From Candidatus Omnitrophota bacterium (GTDB taxonomy: Bacteria > Omnitrophota > Gorgyraeia > Zapsychrales > JAHFFX01): DNA of 64,000 nucleotides. This document shows positions 1-14,280 of this stretch, piece by piece. Location of the stretch: assembly GCA_023247705.1 (NCBI GenBank), contig JAHFFY010000004.1, positions 2,561 to 66,560 on the forward strand. Reading direction: 5' to 3'. Below the pieces are notes generated by a model that did no database searches, had not been told where the DNA came from, and saw only the letters and a list, made by a program, of their open reading frames with translations. The stretch's first letter is position 1. Each line of letters begins with the position of its first letter. Position numbers and translations under genes: made by a program.

Positions 1-53
1 GGTTCGGTCAATGGGCGGAAAAAGAGAAAGAACAATTCGGCTTACAGGACATT

Positions 54-3000
54 TTGCAAGGGATCACACGATTGGTGGTCACGCCCCAAGAAAGGAAGGT
101 CCTCGAGAAAGAGACCGGAGAGTTGCTCGGGGGCGATTTCGCCCTGGCCAGAAAGAATAAAGCGGTCGTCAAGTTAAGCAAAGTGGTCGGGTTGTCGGTC
201 TCGGTGGGTGTCGGTGGCGTTTGGTTATATCTGGCGAATGAGCGATCTCATTTAGCGCAACAGATCCCTTCCTCTGTGCAAAAGCCGATCACCTCATCCG
301 AAACTCCGCAGGAGAATTCCGCTCCACAAACCGAAGCGGCAAAAGAGACCGCTCTAGAAGAAAGTCAAAAATTAACCGGGTTGATGTCTTTGGTGGAAGG
401 ATCGAAGGTCAGCGATGAAGTCAATCGCGCAAATAAAGAGAGAGCGATTCAGAATGTCCAAGCGGAGATTGAGCGTTTGAAGAAATCGGCTCAAGAGGTC
501 GAACAAAAGACCACAACCGTCACCGCCGATGTCCAGCAGTCCCGTCAGCGAATAGAATCTGATTTTAATTCCAAAATAGAAGAATTAAGAGATTTAGCGG
601 GAAAACACGAGGGAGTAAGCCCGCATCATGTCGTCCCAACCGAGGAGAAATGGTATAAATTGAAGGCAACCAAAGAGGTGAAACTGGCATCTCAAGAGAA
701 GAAAGGTCAGGATGAATCAAAAGTGGAATTGAAAGGCGATGGCGGTCTGCGTACGGTTCCGACTGGTCATGGAGGCAGCGATTATTCCGGCCTCGGCACG
801 GAATGGGAGGCGAATTTTGAGAGTGCCTCGCCATTTTTGTCTTTAGGGAGTTTTACCCAGGTGAATTATACCAATGGGTATCTTGTCCCGCGTAAAAGCC
901 AACCGCAGGTGTGGTCCTTAAAGAAACAGGAAGTGACGCGGGAATGGGTAATCCAATCCTCCAAAGGAAAAAGCCAGCTGCAGCTCGCGGTCCCGCCGGG
1001 TTATGTGATTGTCGGTCTTGAAACCAAAGAGCTGGTGGAAGGAACCATTTATTATGACCCGGTCCATCAAACCTGGCATCTGGCCTCGGAACAAAATTCC
1101 AAACAAGTCAAGGTTTACGTCCGTAAAGCTAAACCGAGAGAATTGCCGGTCTATAAACAATCCCTTCTTTTAGTAAATGATCAAGGGCAGGCTTTAAGTG
1201 CGGCAGCGATTCAGACCGCTTTTCAAAAGGATTTCCCGAAGGAGATGCTGGACCTTTTCGATTTGGCCAAAAGTTTATCGCTGGAAGAGAAGCTGGAATT
1301 GCGTCGGATGCTTCTCGATCTCAAAATTTTTTATTATACCACCAATCCCTATTTGACCGATGTTACGAAGGGGATGACCCTGGTGCAAGAGATGTTTTTT
1401 ACCCTGGCGCATCAATGCAATGGTTTTGCTTCCTTTAACAGCATTCTCTCGTTTGCTTTGGGTATTCTCGAGAAAGAGTATGCCATGGATGGGTACTGGG
1501 ATACAAACGGGAGCAGATTTGTGACCAGAGGAAATGGACATAATTGGAACATGTCTCAGGGCAACGTATTGAATCAGCCGCAGATCGGCGAATCGTCTCC
1601 TTTTTATCAAAAGGTCGGCGTCACGGAGGCGGAATGGACCAGGGAAATAACCGAGGTGATTCTCCCCCGGGCCCAAAGACTGCGCGCACTTCTTCCCAAG
1701 ATGCTTGAGATGATCACATTGAGACGCGAGCAGAAAAAGATTGAAACGGCGATCCAGGCCGAAGAGGAAAAACTAAAAAAGGTGAGCGAAGAAAAGCCGG
1801 CCAGACAAGACGGTGAAATCAGCCCGTACTATAAAGACAATCAAGAGTACTATTTTAAGTTAGTCGCCGGTTATCAGGAAAAAATAACCCAGCTTAAGAG
1901 GGATACCTTAACCAAGGAGACGATGGCAACGTTGATTGATTGGGGCTCTGAATTCAGCCGGTCATTGGTGCGGGGAGCGGTGGCGCCCCAGGGCAAGGGA
2001 GGCAAAGGGGTAGAGACACTTCTTCCTTCTGGACAATTAAAAAATATCTTGAAAGGTCAGCCCAAGGATCAGTCGAAGTCCGGCGCTTTGTTTGTTTTTT
2101 ACAATCCCTATGAACTCATGGCCGCGACGGATTATGCCCTCGAGATGCTTTCGGAATTGAATAATAAATTGTGGCGATTTCCTGCCCCAGACTATCCCAT
2201 GATGGAGCGGATCGCGCAAGTTAAAAAAGACATCTTCACGGCGGTGAAGGCGTTTGCCCGTCAGAATAATTGGGAATTGTATGAGCCCTTGGTCATGGAT
2301 CCGATCCGCTTACAGGATGGGACGCTCACGGATTTGGCGGATGGTGGAAATGCCGCCACCCCAAGCTATCTCATTGACCGGCTCAATAAAGATGACAATA
2401 TAACGGATGGAAATGATCTGATGACTTTTGATCTTCGGGACACGTTGGTGGATTTTCAAAAGGATTTGTTTTTATTTAAGTACGAACAAGACGAACAGTA
2501 TAGCGGAGGCGTAAGAACCCGCGCAGCGGAAACGGGATATCATTTAAAGGGAAAAAGATCCGGCCAGTATAAAGACCGACGGATTCCGGCCTTAAATTTG
2601 TCGCTGTATAATTATCCGTTTCCGAATGAAGAATGGCTGGCGGTTGGAACTGATCCGAATGGTAAAACGTTTTTTTTGGGGCCGGTCGCTGAGCGGGAAC
2701 GGCTGAACGATTTGCCGACCGAGGTCCGCAAGGATTTATTTCTTTTACCTAAAAATATTTTTGTGCTCAATGGAGAATTATTGGTCTGGTACAGGGATTC
2801 TCAGGGGCAGTATCGTCTCGGGGGAAGTTATTCCGAACATCATCACTTAGCCGACCGCATTTTTTTTACGACCACCACCCTGAGACAGTTACCCAATGGA
2901 ACGGTCATGTTTTTTGGTTATGAAAATTCCCGCTGGAAGTTGTTTATTTTGGATAAAACTGCGGTCGAAGAAGTTGATTTGGATTCTGTGACGCAGGAAA

Positions 3001-6000
3001 GAGTCGCTAGTGTGCAGGAGTTTGCTGTTTATTCCGATGGGCGCTGGGCCACGGTGCTGACGTATCAATCGGGATTACAAGGATATTTTGGGACAAAAGT
3101 TAAGCAGGCCGGGCTTTTTGATCCGGCCGAACGTTATAAGATCGCACGTATTCCAGTTGAGACCCCACAGAAAGGAATCATCGCTGCAGTGGAAGACCAA
3201 GGTGGATCATACTATATCGAATTTGACAGCGATGTTATTGAGCAAATTTCCGAGATTAAAAACGATCAACATCTTTTGGGGGCAGAGAATCCCATCTTTT
3301 TCCCTAACGGAAGTCCGGCTTTTTTAATCCAGCGGCGCGATAGAAAGTGGGTATGGGTGAGTGATCGGGCCGGTGCATCAACGGTCTTAATGCGATATCC
3401 CCTGAACAGAGTATTGGGAACCGCCTCTGGGGCTTCCTTGGAAATTTCAAATCAGCATAAGACCAAAGACGGTCGCTGGGTTGCTGAGGTGGCTTTATCT
3501 AAACAACCTGGCGTGAGGGATCTAGATATTCCTATCCCGGGTGTAAGGGGAAGCTTCGTGATTTTACCTAACGGCGAATGGTTTATGCGTATGCCTTTTA
3601 AAAAGGTCGAGACGGCGATTCAAATGGGCCCTGCCGGTTCATCGACAACGACCGTTGAGAAGAATTATGTCCGGCTTTGGGGGTCATGGTATGAGAGTCA
3701 ACGATCTCACATTCTGGCCACAGACGAGATTTTTACGAACGTTTTTGATCCCATTTTCGCGGTTGGTCCCGATGGAAAGGCGGATGCGTCCCGTTACCTG
3801 TTACTCTATTCCAACGATGAGAACGGTGTGATTTGGAAGGTCAAAGGCCCGCTGGCGCCTTATGTGGGATTATCTGAACAGGAGAGTTATCAACTTGATG
3901 CAATACCTATTCAGGAGACAGCGGATGGACAGATTGTTTTAAATTTGGTTAAAATGGCTCCAGATGGAAATATATTATATAATTTTTCTCCTGTCGTGAA
4001 TCTTTTTCCCCGGAGCCATCATTTTCTGAATCGGGTTATCGCTTTATATAATATTCCGGTTTCAGCCGTTGATGCCAATGAACACATCCCAGAGGAACGG
4101 ATCGATCTGCGCTGGGAACATTTTTCCCGGCTGGTCCCGGCGATCGATGCGACATTGAATTCCCCTAACACCCTGGGGGCGGGAAATTACACGGAAACGT
4201 GGAGTTATCTGGGCGACCTTTTGATGGATATGGAAAACGATCCCAACGGGCGGTATTTTGATCCACAACGCGTCGCGGAAATCCTTCGTTCCTATAAAAA
4301 GATTGTGGCCCAGCTGCTGTTTCATTATTCGGATTCTTCAGCTCAAGACATCGTCAGCTTTAATGAGTTGAAGAGATATACCGATGTCTTGATTGATCAC
4401 GGACTGCATGAGGTGGTCGTTGAGATCTTGGAAGAACTCTACAAAATTCTTTTGAACAAAGAGGCAGAAAAGCCCGCGTCGATGACTTCGGCCAAAGACA
4501 TTGTTTCCCTCCTGACGCCGCAGCAATGGCGGAATGGTATTGAGGCCTATGAAAAATTTCTTCAGGAACAGTTCAAATTAGATAGACGGACCAAAAGCAT
4601 CTATCTGCATAAATATCATTTTGAACCCAGCGATCACCACCGGGTGGATGAATTAAATGCCTTTGCCTCGATTTTCCTGGATGATGCAGCAGTGAACAAA
4701 TTGAGCGGTTATGGGCAGAGGATTGATTCTCTGACGCAGTGGATTCAGGATCTCAATATTCCTTTCCAATATTCTTCGGTCAAGGCCGCCCCGGGATTGA
4801 AAGATATTTTTATCCTTTTACATCAAGGTTTAAAAGGGGATCGACGGAATTTTGATGTGGAGTTCACCCAAGAAACACGATCGAGCCTTTTGTATAAAAT
4901 GGTCAAACTCATCCGCGGCAATACCGATCGACTGAAAGTCAATCTTGCCCATCCGTTGGCGAGTACCGAAGAATATCTCCAGGAACGCCGGGACTGGGAT
5001 TGGGTCAATCAACGCATGACCCGGATGTTGGGGGATGATTTCAACGGCCCTCACAATATCGGGGATGTGGTCACGACATTGATTGAAGAAGCGCATCACG
5101 ATGCTGCGACGTTGTTTGTCTTGGCGGCTTTTTTAACTTTTGTCTCAAGTTTTTTTTCTGATTTCCTGCGCAGAAGAAATATCACCCTGAGCCAAAACCC
5201 CAAGAAAGTGGTGGAACAATTTATCGCAGAAAATCCCTGGCTGGAAGGCTGGGGCGAAGTCGAGGGGATCAAGGATTTTCTTTTAGAGATCTTGAAGTCG
5301 GGAAAACTGATGACCCCCGAACAAGAAGAAAGATTACGCTCGATCCGCCAGCAGACTTCTTCGAATGAAGATCGCATGATCATCGACGCGATTCTGGCAT
5401 TGCCATTTGAATATCCCGCGAAGTCCTCGATGAGTTTGACCGCGATGGGGTTGATTGTCGATCATCTCAATGGGGATACCACTATTGAGCCGTATCGAGA
5501 CCGTAAAAAAATGACCCAGGCCATTTTGGATTTGGTTGAAAATATTAAGGCCGGAAAAATTCCCATCAAAGATTTTTATCCCGAACTGCGCAAGATCATT
5601 TCCCGGTTTAGCCGTGAAGAGACATCTCTCCAGGAAGATCTGACCCCGGTCGCCTTTCAGGATTTGCAGTCCGGATTACAAAATAAAAAGAAAGACGCGC
5701 GTAAGGTCATGACCGACGGCAAAGAAATCATTTCATCCGAGTATGACGGCTATGTCTCAAAACAGACCGGAGCGGGAGTGGAATTTGCTGGGGTCAGGGA
5801 ATACCGGGCCGGAGACGATTGGCGGCGGATTACTTTCGCCAGCTTGGCCTCCATGGATGGCCCTCTCCAGGTGAAGGAATCCCAAAAGGAGACGAAAGTC
5901 TCGGCAGGGATCCTTCTCGATCTGCGCGCGCTCAATAACGCTGACAACCTGGAGCAGTGGACCGAGCAGCTAGCCAACTCGTTGAAAGTTTTATATAAAA

Positions 6001-6818
6001 AATTCAGGGATGGGCTTTCCAGCGGCGGTGATTTTCAACTGAAAGGGTTGATTGTGATTCTGCCGGATGGAAATTTAAAAGAAATAAAAATCGACCGGAC
6101 GTTTCAATATCTTGAACTGGCCAATGGGATTTTTAAGATTGTCGAAAATAATTTTCCGGTGGCGTTTCAGATGTTTCGGATGCAGATGAAGGCTAAGCAG
6201 CCGGAGTTTTATACTGCGGCGGAAAAAAAGCGCTACGCCCAGAGGACCAAAGGCCTTTGGAAAGGGGAATTGAGCCAGCAAAAATTGGGACAGATGCAAC
6301 AGCGCCTTAAGGCTGATAATATTTATTTTGTTGGGGTCGATGAATCCGAACATCAATCGTTGGTTCAAAGTTTTCCGCGGTCGCGTAGTTTTTATTGGAA
6401 AGGCCAGCGGGCATATTCGATTTTGCCCAAAGACCAGGACAAAACGTTGGAGGTGTTGGAATTGGAGCCCGGGGAGAGCGTGACGGCTGCGGCGGACCGG
6501 GCGCTGTTGAAACAATCTGACATCGAACATCCTGAATCTTCAGGGCAAGACCAGATTGCTGATAAAGCCTTGTTGACTGCTGTTAAACCGCCCCCCGGTG
6601 GTATCGATCTTAACCCGGACAACCTGGATCTGCAGACGCAAGGGGAAGGAATGAATTTGAACTTTCCTTTGGATCCCAAAAACCTCGAAGGGGTCCAGAT
6701 CAACGGTCTTACGCCGGTTATTTTAGAGATCACGCCCGTTTCCAACCTGCCTTTTCTTTTAGGGTTGGGTCTCTTGAAGACTGAGCAATTGAGTCTAACT
6801 TCAGAACGTCATAACTAA
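54..6818 (+). CDS. Giant protein of unknown function, at least 2254 aa, membrane-anchored. The reading frame is open to the 5' edge of the window, so the true start may lie upstream.
   Basis: Uninterrupted 6.7-kb ORF; the first start codon in frame is TTG at 54 and there is no in-frame stop upstream within the window. Hydrophobic segment VVGLSVSVGVGGVWLYLA near residue 45. E/K/Q-rich coiled-coil stretch around residues 90-200. Second hydrophobic segment ATLFVLAAFLTFVSSFF at nt 5104-5160. C-terminal region GAGVEFAGVREYRAGDDWRRI (nt 5766-5830) resembles the DUF58 signature. C-x-x-F-A-S motif AHQCNGFASF at nt 1407-1436. GC content matches the surrounding genes. Confidence 0.75.
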   Translation: MQGITRLVVTPQERKVLEKETGELLGGDFALARKNKAVVKLSKVVGLSVSVGVGGVWLYLANERSHLAQQIPSSVQKPITSSETPQENSAPQTEAAKETALEESQKLTGLMSLVEGSKVSDEVNRANKERAIQNVQAEIERLKKSAQEVEQKTTTVTADVQQSRQRIESDFNSKIEELRDLAGKHEGVSPHHVVPTEEKWYKLKATKEVKLASQEKKGQDESKVELKGDGGLRTVPTGHGGSDYSGLGTEWEANFESASPFLSLGSFTQVNYTNGYLVPRKSQPQVWSLKKQEVTREWVIQSSKGKSQLQLAVPPGYVIVGLETKELVEGTIYYDPVHQTWHLASEQNSKQVKVYVRKAKPRELPVYKQSLLLVNDQGQALSAAAIQTAFQKDFPKEMLDLFDLAKSLSLEEKLELRRMLLDLKIFYYTTNPYLTDVTKGMTLVQEMFFTLAHQCNGFASFNSILSFALGILEKEYAMDGYWDTNGSRFVTRGNGHNWNMSQGNVLNQPQIGESSPFYQKVGVTEAEWTREITEVILPRAQRLRALLPKMLEMITLRREQKKIETAIQAEEEKLKKVSEEKPARQDGEISPYYKDNQEYYFKLVAGYQEKITQLKRDTLTKETMATLIDWGSEFSRSLVRGAVAPQGKGGKGVETLLPSGQLKNILKGQPKDQSKSGALFVFYNPYELMAATDYALEMLSELNNKLWRFPAPDYPMMERIAQVKKDIFTAVKAFARQNNWELYEPLVMDPIRLQDGTLTDLADGGNAATPSYLIDRLNKDDNITDGNDLMTFDLRDTLVDFQKDLFLFKYEQDEQYSGGVRTRAAETGYHLKGKRSGQYKDRRIPALNLSLYNYPFPNEEWLAVGTDPNGKTFFLGPVAERERLNDLPTEVRKDLFLLPKNIFVLNGELLVWYRDSQGQYRLGGSYSEHHHLADRIFFTTTTLRQLPNGTVMFFGYENSRWKLFILDKTAVEEVDLDSVTQERVASVQEFAVYSDGRWATVLTYQSGLQGYFGTKVKQAGLFDPAERYKIARIPVETPQKGIIAAVEDQGGSYYIEFDSDVIEQISEIKNDQHLLGAENPIFFPNGSPAFLIQRRDRKWVWVSDRAGASTVLMRYPLNRVLGTASGASLEISNQHKTKDGRWVAEVALSKQPGVRDLDIPIPGVRGSFVILPNGEWFMRMPFKKVETAIQMGPAGSSTTTVEKNYVRLWGSWYESQRSHILATDEIFTNVFDPIFAVGPDGKADASRYLLLYSNDENGVIWKVKGPLAPYVGLSEQESYQLDAIPIQETADGQIVLNLVKMAPDGNILYNFSPVVNLFPRSHHFLNRVIALYNIPVSAVDANEHIPEERIDLRWEHFSRLVPAIDATLNSPNTLGAGNYTETWSYLGDLLMDMENDPNGRYFDPQRVAEILRSYKKIVAQLLFHYSDSSAQDIVSFNELKRYTDVLIDHGLHEVVVEILEELYKILLNKEAEKPASMTSAKDIVSLLTPQQWRNGIEAYEKFLQEQFKLDRRTKSIYLHKYHFEPSDHHRVDELNAFASIFLDDAAVNKLSGYGQRIDSLTQWIQDLNIPFQYSSVKAAPGLKDIFILLHQGLKGDRRNFDVEFTQETRSSLLYKMVKLIRGNTDRLKVNLAHPLASTEEYLQERRDWDWVNQRMTRMLGDDFNGPHNIGDVVTTLIEEAHHDAATLFVLAAFLTFVSSFFSDFLRRRNITLSQNPKKVVEQFIAENPWLEGWGEVEGIKDFLLEILKSGKLMTPEQEERLRSIRQQTSSNEDRMIIDAILALPFEYPAKSSMSLTAMGLIVDHLNGDTTIEPYRDRKKMTQAILDLVENIKAGKIPIKDFYPELRKIISRFSREETSLQEDLTPVAFQDLQSGLQNKKKDARKVMTDGKEIISSEYDGYVSKQTGAGVEFAGVREYRAGDDWRRITFASLASMDGPLQVKESQKETKVSAGILLDLRALNNADNLEQWTEQLANSLKVLYKKFRDGLSSGGDFQLKGLIVILPDGNLKEIKIDRTFQYLELANGIFKIVENNFPVAFQMFRMQMKAKQPEFYTAAEKKRYAQRTKGLWKGELSQQKLGQMQQRLKADNIYFVGVDESEHQSLVQSFPRSRSFYWKGQRAYSILPKDQDKTLEVLELEPGESVTAAADRALLKQSDIEHPESSGQDQIADKALLTAVKPPPGGIDLNPDNLDLQTQGEGMNLNFPLDPKNLEGVQINGLTPVILEITPVSNLPFLLGLGLLKTEQLSLTSERHN

Positions 6819-6917: not shown

Positions 6918-8096
6918 ATGAGCAAAGAATATTCTCCCTTTACGCCAGGGGTGCCTGTTCCCATAGATTTTTTTGTTGGAAGGAATCAAGAGTTAACAAC
7001 ACTGGTTGATAAAGCAAAAGCATCTTCGTCGGGTAAATTACAGTTGGCTTTTGTTTATGGCGAACGAGGCATTGGAAAAAGTTCTTTATGTCGTATGACA
7101 CGTGTTATTGCGGAAAGTCAAGCGGATATCTTGGGGGTACATGTTTTTCTGGGAGGGGTCGTATCTCTCCCAGAAATGGCGAGACGGATTTTTGAAAAAT
7201 TTCTTAATGAAAGTATTAATAGACCATGGTATGAACAGATTAGATCGTTTTTAGGAAAACATGTCAGGGAAGTGGGGTTATTTGGAGTTAATATTGAATT
7301 CGATGCTGACAAAAAGGAACTGAATCAGTTGGTTAATGGTTTCTCAACAGCGTTGAGGACGTTAGTTCAGCAACTAAAGGATAAAAAAGGGCTATTGATT
7401 ATTCTCGATGATTCAAATGGGCTGGCTAATTTGAAAGATTTTGCGAATTGGCTTAAAAGTCTGATTGATGAGATTTCGACATCCGATCAGCCGCTCCCTT
7501 TGTTCCTGGTCTTAGCTGGATTACCAGAAAGAAGATTGCAGCTTTTTCAATCTCAACCTTCTCTGATGAGGGTGTTTGATCCAATTGAGATTAAAAAATT
7601 ATCAGAAGAAGAGACAAAAAATTTCTACAGGCAATCATTTTCTAAGGTAGGAATCAGCATTAAAGAAGAGGAATTAGCGACCCTATGGCAATACTCAGGA
7701 GGCTATCCAGTTTTAGCCCATGAGATTGGAGACGCTGTTTTTAAGATAGACATGGATAATAATATTGATAAAGATGATGCTGTTAGAGGTATTGTTAAGG
7801 CGGCTCATGTTATTGGACAGAAGTATATAGAACCTCAAGTGTATGACGCGATCAGAAGTCAGAAATACCATTCCATTTTAAGAAAATTGGCGAGAGATCC
7901 TTTTGAAAGTCAATTTCGAAAAAAAGAAATAGCCAAAGATCTTAATGAAAGCGAAAAAAAAGTTTTTGATAATTTTCTTCAACGTATGAAGAAATTAGGG
8001 ATCTTAAAAGAAGATAAGGAAGCAGGATCAGGAGCTTATCAATTTACAAGCGATTTGCATTATTTGTTTATTTGGCTTCAAGCTCAGGGGAATTGA
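6918..8096 (+). CDS. AAA+ / STAND-type NTPase (Arch_ATPase / AAA_16-like) with a C-terminal winged-helix-like region.
   Basis: Walker A YGERGIGKSS. Walker B hhhhDD as LLIILDD. GGYP motif typical of the Arch_ATPase family. Roughly 36-38% GC, clearly lower than its neighbours. Confidence 0.7.
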   Translation: MSKEYSPFTPGVPVPIDFFVGRNQELTTLVDKAKASSSGKLQLAFVYGERGIGKSSLCRMTRVIAESQADILGVHVFLGGVVSLPEMARRIFEKFLNESINRPWYEQIRSFLGKHVREVGLFGVNIEFDADKKELNQLVNGFSTALRTLVQQLKDKKGLLIILDDSNGLANLKDFANWLKSLIDEISTSDQPLPLFLVLAGLPERRLQLFQSQPSLMRVFDPIEIKKLSEEETKNFYRQSFSKVGISIKEEELATLWQYSGGYPVLAHEIGDAVFKIDMDNNIDKDDAVRGIVKAAHVIGQKYIEPQVYDAIRSQKYHSILRKLARDPFESQFRKKEIAKDLNESEKKVFDNFLQRMKKLGILKEDKEAGSGAYQFTSDLHYLFIWLQAQGN

Positions 8097-8969: not shown

Positions 8970-9319
8970 TGTTGATCCATTTTTGTAAATCCAAGATTGC
9001 CCATGGACGGGTGACGGAGGCTCAGTTGTATTATGAGGGGAGCATCACAATCGATGAGCGTATTCTGAAGTCGGCCGAGATCATTCCCGGAGAAAAGGTC
9101 GAGGTCTTGAACGTTAACACCGGGTCCCGTATTGAAACGTATGTGATCGCCGGGAAAGCGGGTTCGGGGCAAATTTGCCTCAATGGCCCGGCGGCGCGCT
9201 CAGGCTGTGTGGGCGATCAATTGATCATCCTCTGTTACGCCCTGATTGATCCTTCCGAAGCCAAGAAAGTGAAAACCAAAGTGATTTATCTTGATGATCA
9301 TAACAAAATTAAAAATTAG
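8969..9319 (+). CDS. panD: Aspartate 1-decarboxylase.
   Basis: KSKIAHGRVTEAQLYYEGSITID, including the Gly-Ser self-processing site. Length 116 aa. One-nucleotide TGATG overlap with the upstream gene. Confidence 0.9.
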   Translation: MLIHFCKSKIAHGRVTEAQLYYEGSITIDERILKSAEIIPGEKVEVLNVNTGSRIETYVIAGKAGSGQICLNGPAARSGCVGDQLIILCYALIDPSEAKKVKTKVIYLDDHNKIKN

Positions 9320-9869
9320 ATTGTACGGAGATCCGGTGCTCCGCCAGAAATCTTTACCAGTCAAAACCGTAGGTCCCGCCGAACGCATGTTGATTCCTTC
9401 GATGATTGAGACCATGTATCAGCATAAAGGCATCGGCTTGGCCGCGCCGCAGATCGGGATCAGCGAACAAATCCTGGTCGCGGATATCGGGGAGGGTCCC
9501 GTTGTTTTGATTAACCCTCAGATCATCAAGAAAAGCGGTTCCGACAAGATGGAAGAAGGGTGCTTAAGCATCCCCGGCATTGTCGTCAAGATCACTCGTC
9601 CTAATAAAATCGTCGTGCGATACATCAATGAGTATAACGAACCCGTTCAAAGGGAATTCGGCGAACTTTTTGCCCGCGTCATCCAGCACGAGATGGACCA
9701 TCTCAAAGGCAAACTCATCATCGATTACGCTTCTTTGTCGCAACAGATCAAAATTAAAAAACATCTCAAGGCGATTGAAGAAGGCCGCCTGCAGGATCTG
9801 CCTCAAACGGCCCCGATTCGCTCGAGAATCAAGGAAGAGCTGAATAAAGAAAAGGGAGTTTCTGCATGA
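9291..9869 (+). CDS. def: Peptide deformylase.
   Basis: Motifs GIGLAAPQIG, EGCLSIPG and QHEMDHL. Confidence 0.9.
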   Translation: MMIITKLKIRLYGDPVLRQKSLPVKTVGPAERMLIPSMIETMYQHKGIGLAAPQIGISEQILVADIGEGPVVLINPQIIKKSGSDKMEEGCLSIPGIVVKITRPNKIVVRYINEYNEPVQREFGELFARVIQHEMDHLKGKLIIDYASLSQQIKIKKHLKAIEEGRLQDLPQTAPIRSRIKEELNKEKGVSA

Positions 9870-10780
9870 CGCACACGACACTCGATCCGACTCCATCCGG
9901 GTCGTTGCGTTTACCTTCGTGGTTCAGACAGCCGATTCCCGACATGGAAAAGATATCCGCGATGAAGGATTCGTTCCGGTCAAAGGGGTTGCATACCGTT
10001 TGTGAAAGTTCTCATTGCCCGAACATGGGGCAATGTTGGGGGCGCGGTGTCGCGACGTTCATGATTTTGGGCGATGTGTGTACGCGGGCTTGTCGTTTTT
10101 GCGCGATTGCCGCCGGAAATCCGCTCAAAGTCGATCTGGATGAGCCCGAACATCTCGCCCAAACGATTCAGCGGATGAAATTAAGATATGTTGTGATCAC
10201 CTCCGTCGCGCGGGACGATCTCGGGGATGAAGGCGCCGGACATTTTGCCAAAACTATTATCGCGGTCAGGAAAGAAAACCCGGCGATCAAGATCGAAGTG
10301 CTGATCCCGGATTTTTCTGCCGAAGAAGGCCGTTTAAAAAAGGTCACGGATGTCGCCCCCGAGGTGATGAGTCACAACATTGAGACGGTGCGAAGGCTTT
10401 CCGATCAAGTCCGTCCGCAGGCCGAATATGAACGTTCTCTGTTGGTTTTAAAAACTATTAAACGGTTGAACCCGTCGATTTTTGTCAAATCCAGTTTTAT
10501 GGTTGGCTTGGGAGAATCCCGTGAAGAAATTTTATCCACGATGACGGATTTGCTGGAGGCTGGCTGTCAGATTTTAACGATCGGGCAATATTTGGCGCCG
10601 AGCCAAATGAAGCGGCATCTGAAAGTGGAACGGTTTGTTTCACCGGAAGAATTTGAAAATTATCGTCAATTAGGAAGGAAGATGGGATTTCGGCATGTGA
10701 TGAGCGGGCCGCTGGTGCGCAGTTCTTACATCGCGGAAGAAGGGTATCAAGAGTGTGTGAAGGATTTGGTATCAACTTAA
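9866..10780 (+). CDS. lipA: Lipoyl synthase.
   Basis: CESSHCPNMGQCW auxiliary cluster motif and CTRACRFCA radical-SAM motif. ATGA overlap with def. Confidence 0.9.
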   Translation: MTHTTLDPTPSGSLRLPSWFRQPIPDMEKISAMKDSFRSKGLHTVCESSHCPNMGQCWGRGVATFMILGDVCTRACRFCAIAAGNPLKVDLDEPEHLAQTIQRMKLRYVVITSVARDDLGDEGAGHFAKTIIAVRKENPAIKIEVLIPDFSAEEGRLKKVTDVAPEVMSHNIETVRRLSDQVRPQAEYERSLLVLKTIKRLNPSIFVKSSFMVGLGESREEILSTMTDLLEAGCQILTIGQYLAPSQMKRHLKVERFVSPEEFENYRQLGRKMGFRHVMSGPLVRSSYIAEEGYQECVKDLVST

Positions 10781-10813
10781 ACCTTAATTAGAAGTTCGCC
10801 AGTTGCCAGTTAA

Positions 10814-10897
10814 CGAGTTTTACGAGTTGGTTTTCCCTGTTGCTCAACTTGAGAACAGTCCCAAATAACTCGTAGAACTTGCCAACTCGAAAACTCG
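10814..10897. repeat. Long imperfect inverted repeat in the lipA to flippase-like gene intergenic region.
   Basis: CGAGTTTTACGAGTTGG at 10814-10830 pairs with CCAACTCGAAAACTCG at 10882-10897, a 16/17 match. Nested shorter complementary segments are also present. Confidence 0.5.
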
Positions 10898-10912
10898 CTA
10901 GCTATTTAAATT

Positions 10913-11899
10913 ATGAAAATAAATGACCGTTTAAAAGAAATTTTATCCCTTGCGCTACGTTTTGGTTTAAGCGGGCTTCTGTTGGCGTATCTCTTCAGCA
11001 AAATTGATACTCACTCCATGATGGCGACGTTGAAGACGGCTGATTTTAAGTACATCTATCTTGCCGCCGGGATGTTTCTGCTGATTCATGTGGTTCTGTT
11101 GCTGCGATGGCTTTTATTTATCCGGGCGCTGTCTTTGGAAATTCCGGTCAAAACGCTGGTCGAGTATTTTTTTATCGGTTTGTTTTTTAATCTTTTTCTG
11201 CCGAGCTCAACCGGAGGAGATTTGGTTAAAGTTTTGGGACTTTGCCGATACACGGACCAAAAAGCGAAAGTGGTCGCCTCGGTTGTTTTGGACCGGGTGT
11301 GCGGATTTGTCGCGATTGTTATCGTTGCCTTTTGTTCCTATGGATTCGGTTATGGTTTATTGCATGATCATACGATCTTGATCGGAATTTTCGTCCTGGC
11401 CTTGATGTGTGTGATTTTATTGACGATTTTTTTTAATGAAAAATTTTTTTCGTTTGGATCACATTTGTTTGCGCGGTTTCCGAAAATCAAAGACAGCTTG
11501 ATGAGCCTGCATTATAATATCTCTTTGGTCAAAGGGCGTATTCCGTTTGTCTTTCTGGCGTTTTTATTGTCCTGTCTTTCGCAGTCTTTGCTGATCATTG
11601 ATTTCTTTTTTGTCAGCATGGCGTTGCACCAGAGCATTTCGTTGATTTATTTTTTCATCTTTGTCCCGATCATCTGCGTTGTTTCTTCGTTGCCTTCCAT
11701 CGGGGGGTTGGGTGTCAGAGACGCGGGAGCTGCCCATTTGTTTGCTAAAATCGGTGTGGCCGAAGGGGTCTCGGTCAGTTTGACACTGGTCAATTTTATT
11801 TTTATGGTTATCATCGGCCTTATCGGCGGAATTGTTTATGTCGCTCACTTATCTCCTCGACGGGTACAACATCATCAAGCTTGTTCCACTTCTGGCTGA
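10913..11899 (+). CDS. Flippase-like integral membrane protein (UPF0104 / LPG-synthase transmembrane-domain family).
   Basis: Multi-pass membrane protein. The N-terminus LKEILSLALRFGLSGLLLAYLFSKID is typical of the flippase-like domain. Confidence 0.6.
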   Translation: MKINDRLKEILSLALRFGLSGLLLAYLFSKIDTHSMMATLKTADFKYIYLAAGMFLLIHVVLLLRWLLFIRALSLEIPVKTLVEYFFIGLFFNLFLPSSTGGDLVKVLGLCRYTDQKAKVVASVVLDRVCGFVAIVIVAFCSYGFGYGLLHDHTILIGIFVLALMCVILLTIFFNEKFFSFGSHLFARFPKIKDSLMSLHYNISLVKGRIPFVFLAFLLSCLSQSLLIIDFFFVSMALHQSISLIYFFIFVPIICVVSSLPSIGGLGVRDAGAAHLFAKIGVAEGVSVSLTLVNFIFMVIIGLIGGIVYVAHLSPRRVQHHQACSTSG

Positions 11900-12356
11900 G
11901 AAGCCGTGGGACGAATCTAGGGCGTTTTTTATCCGCTGGATAGAGGCCGCTTTGCCGCAAGGGAGCCGGAACAATCAGGTGATTGTGGTCTTTGACGGTC
12001 AGCCGGGGAGCTGGGGGGATTGTTCGACATCGGTTGTCCAAGTTGTGTTTTCACTGGATGAAAGCGCCGATGATCGGATCAAAGCAATGGTCAACCGCTC
12101 GAAGTCGAAAAAAACGATCGTGGTCGTGACCAATGATCGTGATATTATTTATGCGGTCCGTGCCGCCGGGGCCTCCAGCATGAGCGTGGAAGATTTCATG
12201 CGCAAAGGCCGACAACACCCCTTGGGCGCAAAAACGTTGCCTAAAAAAATGGCGCAGCAGAAACAGGATCAATCAAAGTACATCTCAAAATCATTGGAAT
12301 TTAAAATCACCTCAGAGTTCGAACGCATTTGGTTAAAATCCAAGGACTCGAAGTAA
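11832..12356 (+). CDS. NYN-domain protein (YacP/Rae1-like predicted RNase).
   Basis: YLLDGYNII N-terminal motif and VVTNDRDI motif. The start may instead be the ATG at 11838. Confidence 0.6.
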   Translation: MFMSLTYLLDGYNIIKLVPLLAEKPWDESRAFFIRWIEAALPQGSRNNQVIVVFDGQPGSWGDCSTSVVQVVFSLDESADDRIKAMVNRSKSKKTIVVVTNDRDIIYAVRAAGASSMSVEDFMRKGRQHPLGAKTLPKKMAQQKQDQSKYISKSLEFKITSEFERIWLKSKDSK

Positions 12357-12371
12357 ACAGGAAATCTTTTT

Positions 12372-13154
12372 ATGATGAATATTCTCCGCTCAATCGGTCG
12401 TTACGTGATCGGAATTTTTTTGGGGTTGGGAAATGCCATTTTTTTTCTCCTGGAAATTTTAGGAAATATTGTTAAGGGGAAAATCCGTGTGCAGGAGGTT
12501 TTAAAACAGATTTTTGAGCAAGGAGTTCAATCTCTGGTCATCGTGGCACTGACTTCCTTTGCATCGGGAGCGGTGTTGGCGATGCAGGGTCATGTGATGC
12601 TGGAACGGTTCGGCGCCAAAGAATACGTCGCGCATCTGGTGGCGCTTTCATTAGTGCGTGAGTTGTCGCCGGTTTTCACTTCTTTTATTTTTTCCGGCAA
12701 GGCGGGGGCCAAGATTGCGGCGGAATTAGGCTCGATGAGCGTCAATAATCAAATCGTTGCGACACGCACGCTGGGGGTCGACCCGGTGGAGTTTCTGGTT
12801 GTGCCGCGTTTCGTCGCTTGTTTTCTGGTCCTGCCGCTTTTGGTCGTATTTTCGGAACTGCTGGGGATCATGGGAGGATATTGCGTGAGTGTCTTCGAGG
12901 CCGGCATCCCGGGATCGTTTTATGTGACACAGACGTTACGCGTCATTAATTATGTGGATTTTTTCAGCGGTTTGATCAAGACGTTTTTTTTCGCGTTTTT
13001 AATCGGCTGGATTTGCTGTTATCAGGGGTTCTTCACCCAGGGCGGATCGTTGGGGGTTGGAAAATACACGACCAAAGCCGTCGCGTATTCTTATATTTTT
13101 GTAGTTTTATCGAATGTTTTTTTAACCAAGGTCATCCTGGCCTTGTGGCAATAA
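12372..13154 (+). CDS. mlaE: ABC transporter permease MlaE.
   Basis: About 260 aa multi-pass permease with MlaE/Ttg2B-like sequence (GVQSLVIVALTSFASGAVLAMQG). Confidence 0.85.
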   Translation: MMNILRSIGRYVIGIFLGLGNAIFFLLEILGNIVKGKIRVQEVLKQIFEQGVQSLVIVALTSFASGAVLAMQGHVMLERFGAKEYVAHLVALSLVRELSPVFTSFIFSGKAGAKIAAELGSMSVNNQIVATRTLGVDPVEFLVVPRFVACFLVLPLLVVFSELLGIMGGYCVSVFEAGIPGSFYVTQTLRVINYVDFFSGLIKTFFFAFLIGWICCYQGFFTQGGSLGVGKYTTKAVAYSYIFVVLSNVFLTKVILALWQ

Positions 13155-13219
13155 ACAGGCGGGGTTGATCGGATAAAATTGTTTAAAATAGTTAGATAAA
13201 TTTTTGAGGAGGAAATCCC

Positions 13220-13564
13220 ATGAACATTTTTTACAAAAAATTTATGACCATCGTGATCGGGTGCAGTTTTTCTCTTTTGACAGGTTGCGTAAGCCATACT
13301 TCCAATGGCGGACAACTGACCATGTATCGCACGCCCAGCATGGAAGCGGCTTGGATCCGCAACGGAGATCCGATCCTGTTTGATGGAACACTATGGTACC
13401 CCACGGACAATGTCGAAAATATCCAGGATGCGGAAGTTTATCTCATGGGCGAGTATCAGGAGGTTCAATTTTTTATTGAAAAAACAGATGTTAAACCTTA
13501 TGATCGGTTATACACCAAGTTTGGAGAGAATCAATTCCGGTCTTTTGCGCATCGAGAGGAATAA
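13220..13564 (+). CDS. Lipoprotein of unknown function embedded in the mla operon.
   Basis: Signal peptide with lipobox LLTGC; 114 aa; no recognisable domain. Confidence 0.55.
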   Translation: MNIFYKKFMTIVIGCSFSLLTGCVSHTSNGGQLTMYRTPSMEAAWIRNGDPILFDGTLWYPTDNVENIQDAEVYLMGEYQEVQFFIEKTDVKPYDRLYTKFGENQFRSFAHREE

Positions 13565-14280
13565 TGATAGAGATTATTCATCTTTTTAAAAAACTTGAAG
13601 ACCAGATGGTGCTTACTGACGTTAATCTGAAAATCGCCCTAGGAGAGATTTTGGTCGTTCTCGGAGGAAGCGGGGCCGGAAAAAGCGTTCTACTGCAGCA
13701 TCTGATCGGTTTAATGAAGCCCGATCGAGGTTCCATCATGATTGATTCCAAAGATATCACCCGTCTTAAGGAGCGGGAACTTTTGCAGATGAGAAAAAAC
13801 ATCGGCTTTCTCTTTCAGGAAGGCGCTTTATATGACTTCATGAATGTCTTCGAGAACATTGCTTTTCCTCTGCAGGAACATACAACCATGAATGAATCGG
13901 GGATCAGAGCTAAAGTCAAAGAAGCCTTGAAAATTGTCGGGCTGGAAGGGGCCGATGAGAAATTTCCCTCTGAACTCAGCGGCGGGATGAAAAAAAGAGC
14001 GGCTCTGGCCCGGGCCATTATTCTGGATTCGAAAATTCTTTTCTGCGACGAACCGACTTCCGGGTTAGACCCGATTTTAAGCAAGGATATCACCGACCTG
14101 ATTCAGAATATATCAAGACAGTTAAAGTGCACGACCATCATTACCTCGCATGATATGAAAAATGCGTTAAGGATTGCTGATCGCGTGGCGATCGTTTTTA
14201 AGGGGGCGATCCTGGCAACGGGAACACAAAAAGATATCCTCTCATCTCAAAATGCTTACGTCCGGGAGTTTTTGAATTAG
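13564..14280 (+). CDS. mlaF: ABC transporter ATP-binding protein MlaF.
   Basis: Walker A GGSGAGKS, ABC signature LSGGMKKR and Walker B ILFCDEP. Confidence 0.85.
   Translation: MIEIIHLFKKLEDQMVLTDVNLKIALGEILVVLGGSGAGKSVLLQHLIGLMKPDRGSIMIDSKDITRLKERELLQMRKNIGFLFQEGALYDFMNVFENIAFPLQEHTTMNESGIRAKVKEALKIVGLEGADEKFPSELSGGMKKRAALARAIILDSKILFCDEPTSGLDPILSKDITDLIQNISRQLKCTTIITSHDMKNALRIADRVAIVFKGAILATGTQKDILSSQNAYVREFLN

What the first reader, a model, noticed from the sequence alone, without database searches (positions are those of the whole stretch)
5766..6100. DUF58-like signature in the C-terminal region of the giant protein
The segment GAGVEFAGVREYRAGDDWRRITFASLAS...AGILLDLRA closely follows the DUF58 hallmark G-x-G-x-EF...REY-x-GDD-x-RRI-x-W, followed by an hhhhD strand. 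DUF58 proteins (vWA-like) normally occur as stand-alone partners of MoxR-type AAA+ ATPases, as in the Bat/aerotolerance operons. Finding this signature fused to the end of a giant transmembrane protein, with a non-MoxR ATPase encoded next door, would be a new architecture.
Basis: partly seen in the sequence, partly recalled or inferred. Interest (0 to 1): 0.7.

Follow-up and report, generated by a model that had tools for sequence, protein, structure and literature searches.

The report
DUF58-like domain in giant Omnitrophota protein
The motif is real: a very long membrane protein from an uncultured Omnitrophota-type bacterium ends in a diverged copy of the DUF58 domain, and the same protein also carries a transglutaminase-like domain, DUF58's usual gene neighbour. 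The ATPase gene next door is not a conserved partner.

Summary
GAGVEFAGVREYRAGDDWRRI...AGILLDLRA lies at window 5769-5930, inside a giant ORF that the left window edge cuts short (full protein 2950 aa). On its own this protein scores below Pfam's DUF58 cut-off (13-16 bits against 23.4). It does belong to a family of at least 18 clusters, mostly 2000-6800 aa proteins. Eighteen of 19 family members hit DUF58, and all 7 re-scored pass the cut-off. The family profile retrieves only canonical stand-alone DUF58 proteins, and hhalign gives 98.9% probability (E 1e-17).

Verdict: a new variant of a known kind, of moderate interest. The proposed function is inferred, not shown.

The parts
3..6818 (+). 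Giant ORF, cut at its N-terminus by the window edge. The full product is P0001, 2950 aa; window ORF residue n equals P0001 residue n+696.
   Evidence: The frame is open from nt 3. There is a 100% match to the 2950-aa P0001. The same gene appears in independent assemblies L004 and L005.
183..233 (+). Hydrophobic segment TM1 (VVGLSVSVGVGGVWLYL), preceded by a K/R-rich stretch.
   Evidence: Kyte-Doolittle scan. Homologues have an equivalent TM with 3-7 K/R on its N-terminal side.
1086..1865 (+). Transglutaminase-like (papain-fold) region. The invariant Cys is at nt 1416-1418 (HQCNGF) and the invariant His at nt 1539-1541 (GHNWN).
5112..5168 (+). Hydrophobic segment TM2 (LFVLAAFLTFVSSFFSDFL), followed by RRR...KK.
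   Evidence: Kyte-Doolittle score 1.97-2.13. In the homologues where TM2 was detected, K/R counts are 0-2 before and 3-6 after.
5751..5933 (+). DUF58 signature plus the first beta-strand (YVSKQTGAGVEFAGVREYRAGDDWRRITFASLASMDGPLQVKESQKETKVSAGILLDLRAL). This is the only part with demonstrable DUF58 homology.
   Evidence: Pfam PF01882 positions 2-46, 13-16 bits. hhalign of A1 against canonical DUF58: 98.9% probability, E 1.1e-17, 60 columns.
5934..6425 (+). Alpha/beta body of the domain, with family motifs W..L.NSLKV, LIF.hPDG, FYT..EN.RY..R, hF.VG and W. It is possibly vWA-like and has no MIDAS motif.
6591..6776 (+). Lineage-specific C-terminal module (PPGGIDLNP...GLTPVILEITPVSNLPFLLGLGLL).
   Evidence: The module lies at the extreme C-terminus of 136 proteins of 78-4553 aa. 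It has no Pfam match. All 26 genome loci that carry it are Omnitrophota MAGs or MAGs labelled 'uncultured Planctomycetales'.
6918..8096 (+). Neighbouring AAA_16 / ATPase_2 / nSTAND1-type P-loop ATPase with a C-terminal wHTH-like region. It is not a conserved partner.
   Evidence: Pfam. It is absent next to the homologues P0002, P0005, P0006, P0009 and P0017. It has no significant PADLOC match.

Best explanation
The segment is the conserved signature plus first beta-strand of a highly diverged DUF58-family domain, about 220 aa long (window 5751-6425). The domain is embedded near the C-terminus of a 2950-aa envelope protein with two TM segments, from an Omnitrophota-type bacterium.

Domain order of the protein (shown):
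- signal-peptide-like N-terminus
- a conserved Omnitrophota N-terminal domain (outside the window)
- TM1
- a transglutaminase-like Cys-His domain followed by a large beta-rich region
- TM2
- a helical linker
- the DUF58-like MIDAS-less alpha/beta domain
- a roughly 60-aa Omnitrophota C-terminal module

Inferred mechanism. In many bacteria a MoxR-type ATPase, a stand-alone DUF58 protein and a membrane transglutaminase are encoded side by side. Here the DUF58 and transglutaminase components are joined in one polypeptide on opposite sides of TM2. The DUF58-like domain therefore most likely acts as a built-in protein-protein docking or regulatory module for the transglutaminase-like (cross-linking or cysteine-protease) part of the same protein. 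It would not act through MIDAS metal binding, and it has no dedicated adjacent ATPase. The neighbouring AAA_16/ATPase_2 gene is an unrelated accessory gene.
For: DUF58 homology: 18 of 19 family members hit PF01882, and 7 of 7 re-scored pass the gathering score. The family profile retrieves only canonical DUF58 proteins, E 1.5e-9 to 1.8e-5. hhalign gives 98.9% probability and E 1e-17. P0002, the nearest homologue, carries a precomputed PF01882 hit.

Conserved fusion: the C-terminal block (TM2, linker, DUF58-like domain) aligns in P0002, 5, 6, 9, 17, 21, 25, 75, 85 and 124. The transglutaminase-like region co-occurs with it in P0002, 5, 9, 17, 20, 75 and 85.

Known triad: MoxR/MRP genes are often followed by a DUF58 gene and a transglutaminase gene (PMC6803598, citing Wong and Houry 2012; PMC12067865).

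Neighbours vary between loci, and no MoxR-like ORF was found in the window or in 606 kb of loci.

Against: Topology is unresolved. The signal peptide plus two TMs, and the fact that the C-terminal module occurs in proteins whose only hydrophobic segment is an N-terminal signal peptide, put the DUF58-like domain outside the cytoplasm. The positive-inside rule puts it inside.

The MoxR search was a crude motif scan of limited sequence, so a MoxR gene elsewhere in the genome is not excluded. No functional data exist for DUF58 anywhere (PMC12067865).
Confidence: 0.6

Rival explanations
1. The DUF58-like domain works with the adjacent AAA_16/ATPase_2 protein as a substitute for MoxR. This would be a new ATPase plus DUF58 two-gene system.
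For: The ATPase gene starts 100 nt downstream on the same strand, and no terminator-like site was predicted between the two genes. In the P0002 locus another P-loop ATPase (AAA_14/DUF4143) lies directly upstream.
Against: The neighbour differs in every homologous locus examined. They are AAA_14/DUF4143 (a PADLOC candidate defence gene, PDC-S01, E 4e-138), a GFO/IDH/MocA oxidoreductase, a Pol-beta NTase plus NTase_sub_bind pair, and an unknown ORF plus AbiEii. AAA_16/ATPase_2/STAND ATPases are not the AAA+ class that pairs with vWA or DUF58 proteins.
Confidence: 0.05
2. Only the roughly 60-residue DUF58 signature was retained or recruited as a small interaction motif. The alpha/beta body behind it is an unrelated Rossmann-like domain, so the region is not a DUF58/vWA domain in any functional sense.
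For: All Pfam hits stop at profile position 46-65 of 216. hhalign of the body against the canonical DUF58 body gives probability 0.1%. Foldseek finds no significant vWA match. The family has its own conserved motifs (FYT..EN.RY, NSLKV) that are absent from the canonical DUF58 alignment.
Confidence: 0.25
3. The fusion is an artefact. Under this view a stand-alone DUF58-like gene was joined to a giant gene by misassembly or a missed stop or frameshift, or the motif match is chance.
For: Some family hits are short (P0003 397 aa, P0053 407 aa, P0014 501 aa, P0056 524 aa) and contain only the C-terminal region. The window protein alone has only E 0.008-0.057 to DUF58.
Against: The frame is uninterrupted over 6.8 kb. 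The same gene is present in independent ENA and Logan assemblies. P0002 is found on 9 contigs from NCBI, JGI and ENA sources. At least 10 long homologues from different assemblies show the same order of TM2, linker and DUF58-like domain. Family-level statistics rule out chance. The short hits may be gene fragments from short contigs; this was not checked.
Confidence: 0.03

Closest known systems
Canonical stand-alone DUF58 proteins (Pfam PF01882). Examples are the Kibdelosporangium phytohabitans DUF58 protein P0158, the mycobacterial DUF58 gene next to moxR1, and the Bifidobacterium PFNA duf58 gene.
   Same: They share the G-x-G-x-EF...R-x-Y-x-x-GDD-x-R-x-IDW...AR...V(K/R)...E signature running into a hydrophobic strand that ends in Asp (hhalign 98.9%). 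MIDAS-less variants such as LALDLRAAS exist among canonical members too.
   Different: Canonical members are 245-433 aa. The longer ones in alignment A2 have N-terminal TM helices and an extra N-terminal domain, and DUF58 genes typically sit next to a MoxR AAA+ gene (PMC6803598, PMC12067865). Here the domain sits at residues 2596-2820 of a 2950-aa protein, behind a helical linker. Its body is unalignable to DUF58, and no MoxR neighbour is present.
The MoxR (MRP subfamily) - DUF58 - transglutaminase gene triad, and the TgpA-type membrane transglutaminase of Pseudomonas aeruginosa (PDB 6g4h).
   Different: The triad consists of three separate genes. Here two of the components are in one polypeptide, and the ATPase is missing from the neighbourhood. 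Sequence similarity to Transglut_core is weak.
vWA partners of MoxR-class ATPases (BatA/BatB, BB0173, ViaA, NorD).
   Different: Those proteins have a DxSxS MIDAS motif (PMC5700661). This family has D-L-R-A-L or equivalents.
Giant and very long proteins of Omnitrophota (bioRxiv 10.1101/2023.11.21.568195; 10.64898/2026.06.07.730766).
   Same: The lineage is the same (inferred). These are also very long envelope-associated proteins with TM anchors near the C-terminus.
   Different: The text of neither paper mentions DUF58, vWA, transglutaminase or MoxR. At 2950 aa this protein is far below the size of the giants described there.

Membership tests
DUF58 (Pfam PF01882) | N-terminal signature GxGxEF...RxYxxGDDxRxIDW...AR...V(K/R)xxxxE followed by a hydrophobic strand ending in Asp | tested here: met
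   The signature is present at nt 5769-5930 with deviations (ITF for IDW, LAS for AR). hhalign gives 98.9% probability and E 1.1e-17 over 60 columns.
DUF58 (Pfam PF01882) | Score at or above the Pfam gathering threshold (23.4 bits) | tested here: not met
   The window protein scores 13.0-15.9 bits. All 7 re-scored homologues do pass, at 28.6-44.7 bits, so membership holds for the family by transitivity.
DUF58 (Pfam PF01882) | Match across the whole 216-position profile (the body after the first strand) | tested here: not met
   All matches end at profile position 44-65. hhalign of the body against the canonical body gives probability 0.1%.
DUF58 (Pfam PF01882) | Genomic association with a MoxR-type AAA+ ATPase | tested here: not met
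   No MoxR is present beside the gene in 6 loci. No ORF with a DE[IVL]NR motif plus a Walker A motif occurs in the window or in 606 kb of loci; this is a crude scan. The rest of the genome was not available.
DUF58 (Pfam PF01882) | Stand-alone protein of about 250-450 aa | tested here: not met
   The domain is embedded at residues 2596-2820 of a 2950-aa protein. Canonical hits are 245-433 aa.
vWA superfamily | vWA (Rossmann-like beta-alpha-beta) fold | tested here: inconclusive
   [not shown]
vWA superfamily | MIDAS motif DxSxS at the end of the first strand | tested here: not met
   The window has LLDLRAL, and the family consensus is ILxDxRxL. Some canonical DUF58 proteins also lack the motif.
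Transglutaminase-like superfamily (Pfam PF01841; TgpA/LapG type) | Cys-His-Asp catalytic triad in the papain/transglutaminase arrangement, with Cys at a helix N-terminus and His on a strand | tested here: inconclusive
   Cys (P0001 residue 1151) and His (residue 1192) are invariant in 8 of 8 homologues. In the model, Cys starts helix 111-125 and His lies in strand 150-157. The third position is Glu in 6 of 8 and Asn in 2 of 8, including the window copy.
Transglutaminase-like superfamily (Pfam PF01841; TgpA/LapG type) | Significant profile or fold match | tested here: inconclusive
   [not shown]

The most novel reading that the evidence does not exclude
The protein is a natural 'Rosetta-stone' fusion of the DUF58 and membrane-transglutaminase components of the widespread MoxR-DUF58-transglutaminase triad, and it works without a dedicated MoxR. 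If so, DUF58 would contact and control the transglutaminase protein directly across the membrane. That would give the first mechanistic handle on a domain found in thousands of bacterial genomes whose role is unknown. It would also show this module built into the long envelope proteins of Omnitrophota.
Probability: 0.3. Interest if true: 0.65.

Novelty: new variant of a known kind. Interest (0 to 1): 0.45.

Why it matters
DUF58 is a very common bacterial domain of unknown function. It is known mainly from its conserved position between a MoxR ATPase gene and a transglutaminase or vWA membrane-protein gene.

A conserved family in which a DUF58-type domain sits in the same polypeptide as a transglutaminase-like domain, with no adjacent MoxR, is independent genomic evidence that DUF58 and the transglutaminase act on each other directly. 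It also offers a defined construct for testing that idea: TM2, the linker and the domain.

The finding adds an unannotated domain assignment to the long envelope proteins of Omnitrophota, which are otherwise almost free of recognisable domains. The practical value is limited, because the organisms are uncultured and the fold and function assignments are still weak.

Tried and rejected
- A Pfam scan of the full-length ORF found no DUF58 hit; the hit appears only when the C-terminal part is scanned alone.
- NCBIfam gave nothing relevant.
- A word-indexed homologue search with the C-terminal 405 aa returned nothing, not even the protein itself. The exhaustive phmmer search was needed.
- PDB sequence searches with the single protein and with profile A1 gave no hits.
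- An exact look-up of P0001 on contigs found no record.
The single protein found no relative in the genome collection, so the source genome is not among the species representatives. The narrower alignment A4 worked.
- The afdb50 fold library was unavailable, so no comparison with AlphaFold models of canonical DUF58 proteins was possible.
- Cluster look-up gave no names or organisms.
- The idea that the adjacent ATPase is a functional partner was rejected after comparing loci.
- The idea that the C-terminal PGGIDLNP module is part of the DUF58 domain was rejected. It occurs on its own in 136 otherwise unrelated proteins.
- The N-terminal 732 aa and the middle regions have no Pfam domains.
Full report
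**1. What is there**

The window's first gene is a + strand ORF ending at nt 6818. Its frame is open back to nt 3, so the left window edge cuts it. A database search with the 2254-aa window ORF found one 100%-identical protein, P0001, of 2950 aa on an 80.9-kb NCBI contig. Window ORF residue n equals P0001 residue n+696.

The reported string is present as described. GAGVEFAGVREYRAGDDWRRITFASLAS starts at nt 5769, and AGILLDLRA occupies nt 5904-5930.

**2. Is it DUF58?**

For this protein alone the evidence is marginal.
- Pfam PF01882 gives 13.0-15.9 bits (E 0.008-0.057) against a gathering score of 23.4.
- Only profile positions 2-46 of 216 are covered.
- The hit appears only when the C-terminal part is scanned by itself.
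- NCBIfam and PDB sequence searches gave nothing.

An exhaustive phmmer search of 1.84 billion cluster representatives with the last 405 aa gave 1594 hits of two kinds.
- (a) About 18 proteins match query positions 14-275, the DUF58-like region. Most are 2000-6800 aa.
- (b) Well over a hundred proteins of every size match only the last 70 aa or so.

I cut the class (a) regions and aligned them as A1 (19 sequences). The results at family level were as follows.
- Eighteen of 19 members hit DUF58 at E<=0.1, with a best E of 1.2e-11.
- All seven members that I re-scored pass Pfam's threshold at 28.6-44.7 bits. This includes the nearest homologue, P0002, at 44.7 bits. P0002 also carries a precomputed PF01882 annotation.
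- The A1 profile, searched against 5.8 billion proteins, returned ten hits. All are canonical stand-alone PF01882 proteins of 245-433 aa, with E from 1.5e-9 to 1.8e-5.
- Profile-profile comparison with those proteins (alignment A2) gave 98.9% probability and E 1.1e-17 over 60 columns.

Homology of the signature to DUF58 is therefore established.

**3. How far does the homology reach?**

It reaches only through the signature and the first beta-strand. Every Pfam match stops at profile position 44-65. When both alignments are cut after that strand, hhalign finds nothing (probability 0.1%).

The body has its own family motifs: W..L.NSLKV, LIF.hPDG, FYT..EN.RY..R and hF.VG.

An AlphaFold2 model built on A1 has pLDDT 73.4 and pTM 0.65, and shows an alternating beta/alpha domain. 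The two fold searches disagree.
- Foldseek against the PDB gives no hit at E<=0.001, and TM-scores are 0.3 or less. vWA domains, including the NorQD complex, are merely frequent among the weak hits.

The vWA fold is therefore suggested but not shown. The AlphaFold DB library, which would hold canonical DUF58 models, was not available.

The MIDAS DxSxS motif is replaced by D-L-R-A-L. Some canonical DUF58 proteins also lack MIDAS, for example P0151 with LALDLRAAS.

**4. The rest of the protein**

Comparison of P0001 with other long hits shows a modular frame.
- **N-terminal domain.** A domain of about 350 aa, outside the window, is shared at E 1e-100 to 1e-170 with many proteins that are otherwise unrelated.
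- **C-terminal module.** The module PGGIDLNP...GLTPVI..ITPVTNLPLLLG is shared with 136 proteins of 78-4553 aa, always within 0-81 residues of the C-terminus with one exception. It matches no Pfam family.
- **Lineage.** A scan of species-representative genomes for this module returned 26 loci. All are from MAGs named Candidatus Omnitrophota/Omnitrophica, Ca. Zapsychrus, one unnamed 'bacterium', or 'uncultured Planctomycetales' in third-party assemblies. The window's organism is thus inferred to belong to Omnitrophota; this was not shown directly.

The DUF58-bearing subfamily additionally shares two blocks.
- **Block 2: P0001 residues about 2100-2820.** This block holds TM2, the helical linker and the DUF58-like domain.

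**5. Neighbourhood**

The gene at 6918-8096 encodes an AAA_16/ATPase_2/nSTAND1-type P-loop protein. It has no significant PADLOC match. It lies 100 nt downstream with no predicted terminator between the genes.

The homologous giants have different neighbours.
- P0002: an AAA_14/DUF4143 gene upstream (PADLOC PDC-S01, E 4e-138) and lptF/lptG downstream.
- P0005: two unknown ORFs upstream and a GFO/IDH/MocA oxidoreductase downstream.
- P0017: another long ORF upstream and a Pol-beta NTase / NTase_sub_bind pair downstream.
- P0009: an unknown ORF plus AbiEii.
- The P0006 and P0085 contigs are too short to tell.

No ORF combining the MoxR-type DE[IVL]NR box with a Walker A motif occurs in the window or in the 606 kb of loci held. 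The adjacent ATPase is therefore not a conserved partner, and there is no local MoxR.

**6. Topology**

Homologues have a signal-peptide-like N-terminus and two conserved hydrophobic segments. Two lines of reasoning give opposite answers.
- A cleaved signal peptide plus two TMs would put the N-terminal domain and the C-terminal part (the DUF58-like domain and the module) outside, and the middle inside. This agrees with the C-terminal module also occurring in proteins whose only hydrophobic segment is an N-terminal signal peptide.
- The positive-inside rule says the opposite. K/R counts are 3-7 before TM1, and 3-6 after TM2 against 0-2 before it, in the homologues where these segments were detected. 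That would put the transglutaminase-like middle outside, as in TgpA and LapG, and the DUF58-like domain in the cytoplasm.

I could not resolve this.

**7. Interpretation**

The literature held here states that MoxR (MRP-subfamily) genes are often followed by a DUF58 gene and a transglutaminase gene (PMC6803598, citing Wong and Houry 2012). It also states that the role of DUF58 is unknown (PMC12067865).

The giant protein combines a DUF58-type domain and a transglutaminase-like domain in one chain, separated by TM2. The most economical reading is a single-polypeptide fusion of two members of that triad. Under this reading the DUF58-like domain is a MIDAS-less docking or regulatory module for the protein's own transglutaminase-like part. 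This is inference; nothing here tests function.

**8. Novelty**

The two Omnitrophota long-protein papers do not mention DUF58, vWA, transglutaminase or MoxR. No paper in the library pairs DUF58 with Omnitrophota.

The domain family is known. Its placement in a roughly 3000-aa protein together with a transglutaminase-like domain and without MoxR is, as far as these searches show, undescribed. I rate it a new variant of a known kind, with interest about 0.45.

Noticed in passing
[not shown]
   Followed up: yes
window 6591-6776; loci L008-L033: A roughly 60-aa module (PGGIDLNP..GLTPVI..ITPVTNLPLLLG) sits at the extreme C-terminus of 136 proteins of 78-4553 aa. It was found only in Omnitrophota-type MAGs and has no Pfam family. 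It looks like a lineage-specific sorting or anchoring signal.
   Followed up: partly
P0001 residues 1-350 (upstream of the window): A signal-peptide-led N-terminal domain (LPxPG...LKGIxVHPxNPFxFDFIxDKG...) is shared at E 1e-100 to 1e-170 by more than 20 otherwise different long proteins. It has no Pfam match. Together with the C-terminal module it frames a large family of modular Omnitrophota proteins.
   Followed up: partly
window 183-233 and 5112-5168: The topology predictions conflict. A signal peptide plus two TMs puts the C-terminal part outside the cell membrane. The K/R distribution around both TMs, consistent across homologues, puts it inside.
   Followed up: partly
window 6918-8096; L001 8529-9854; L034 14964-15697; L035 10008-11628: The genes flanking the giant gene differ between loci and are often small accessory or defence-like cassettes. 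They include a STAND-like ATPase, AAA_14/DUF4143 (PADLOC PDC-S01), an NTase/NTase_sub_bind pair, and AbiEii. This suggests the flank is an insertion hotspot.
   Followed up: partly
window 9291-14280 versus L006 1-4800: The block def - lipA-like radical SAM - LPG_synthase_TM - NYN/YacP - mlaE - small ORF - ABC ATPase lies downstream of the giant gene in the window. In the P0005 locus the same block lies upstream of the giant gene, so the synteny is shared but rearranged.
   Followed up: no
window 2500-5000 (P0001 residues about 1500-2350): A large beta-strand-rich region with no Pfam match lies between the transglutaminase-like domain and TM2. It is only patchily conserved among homologues.
   Followed up: no
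window 6075-6530 (-) and 6392-6745 (-): Antisense ORFs of 151 and 117 aa lie wholly inside the giant gene's C-terminal region. They are most likely spurious.
   Followed up: no
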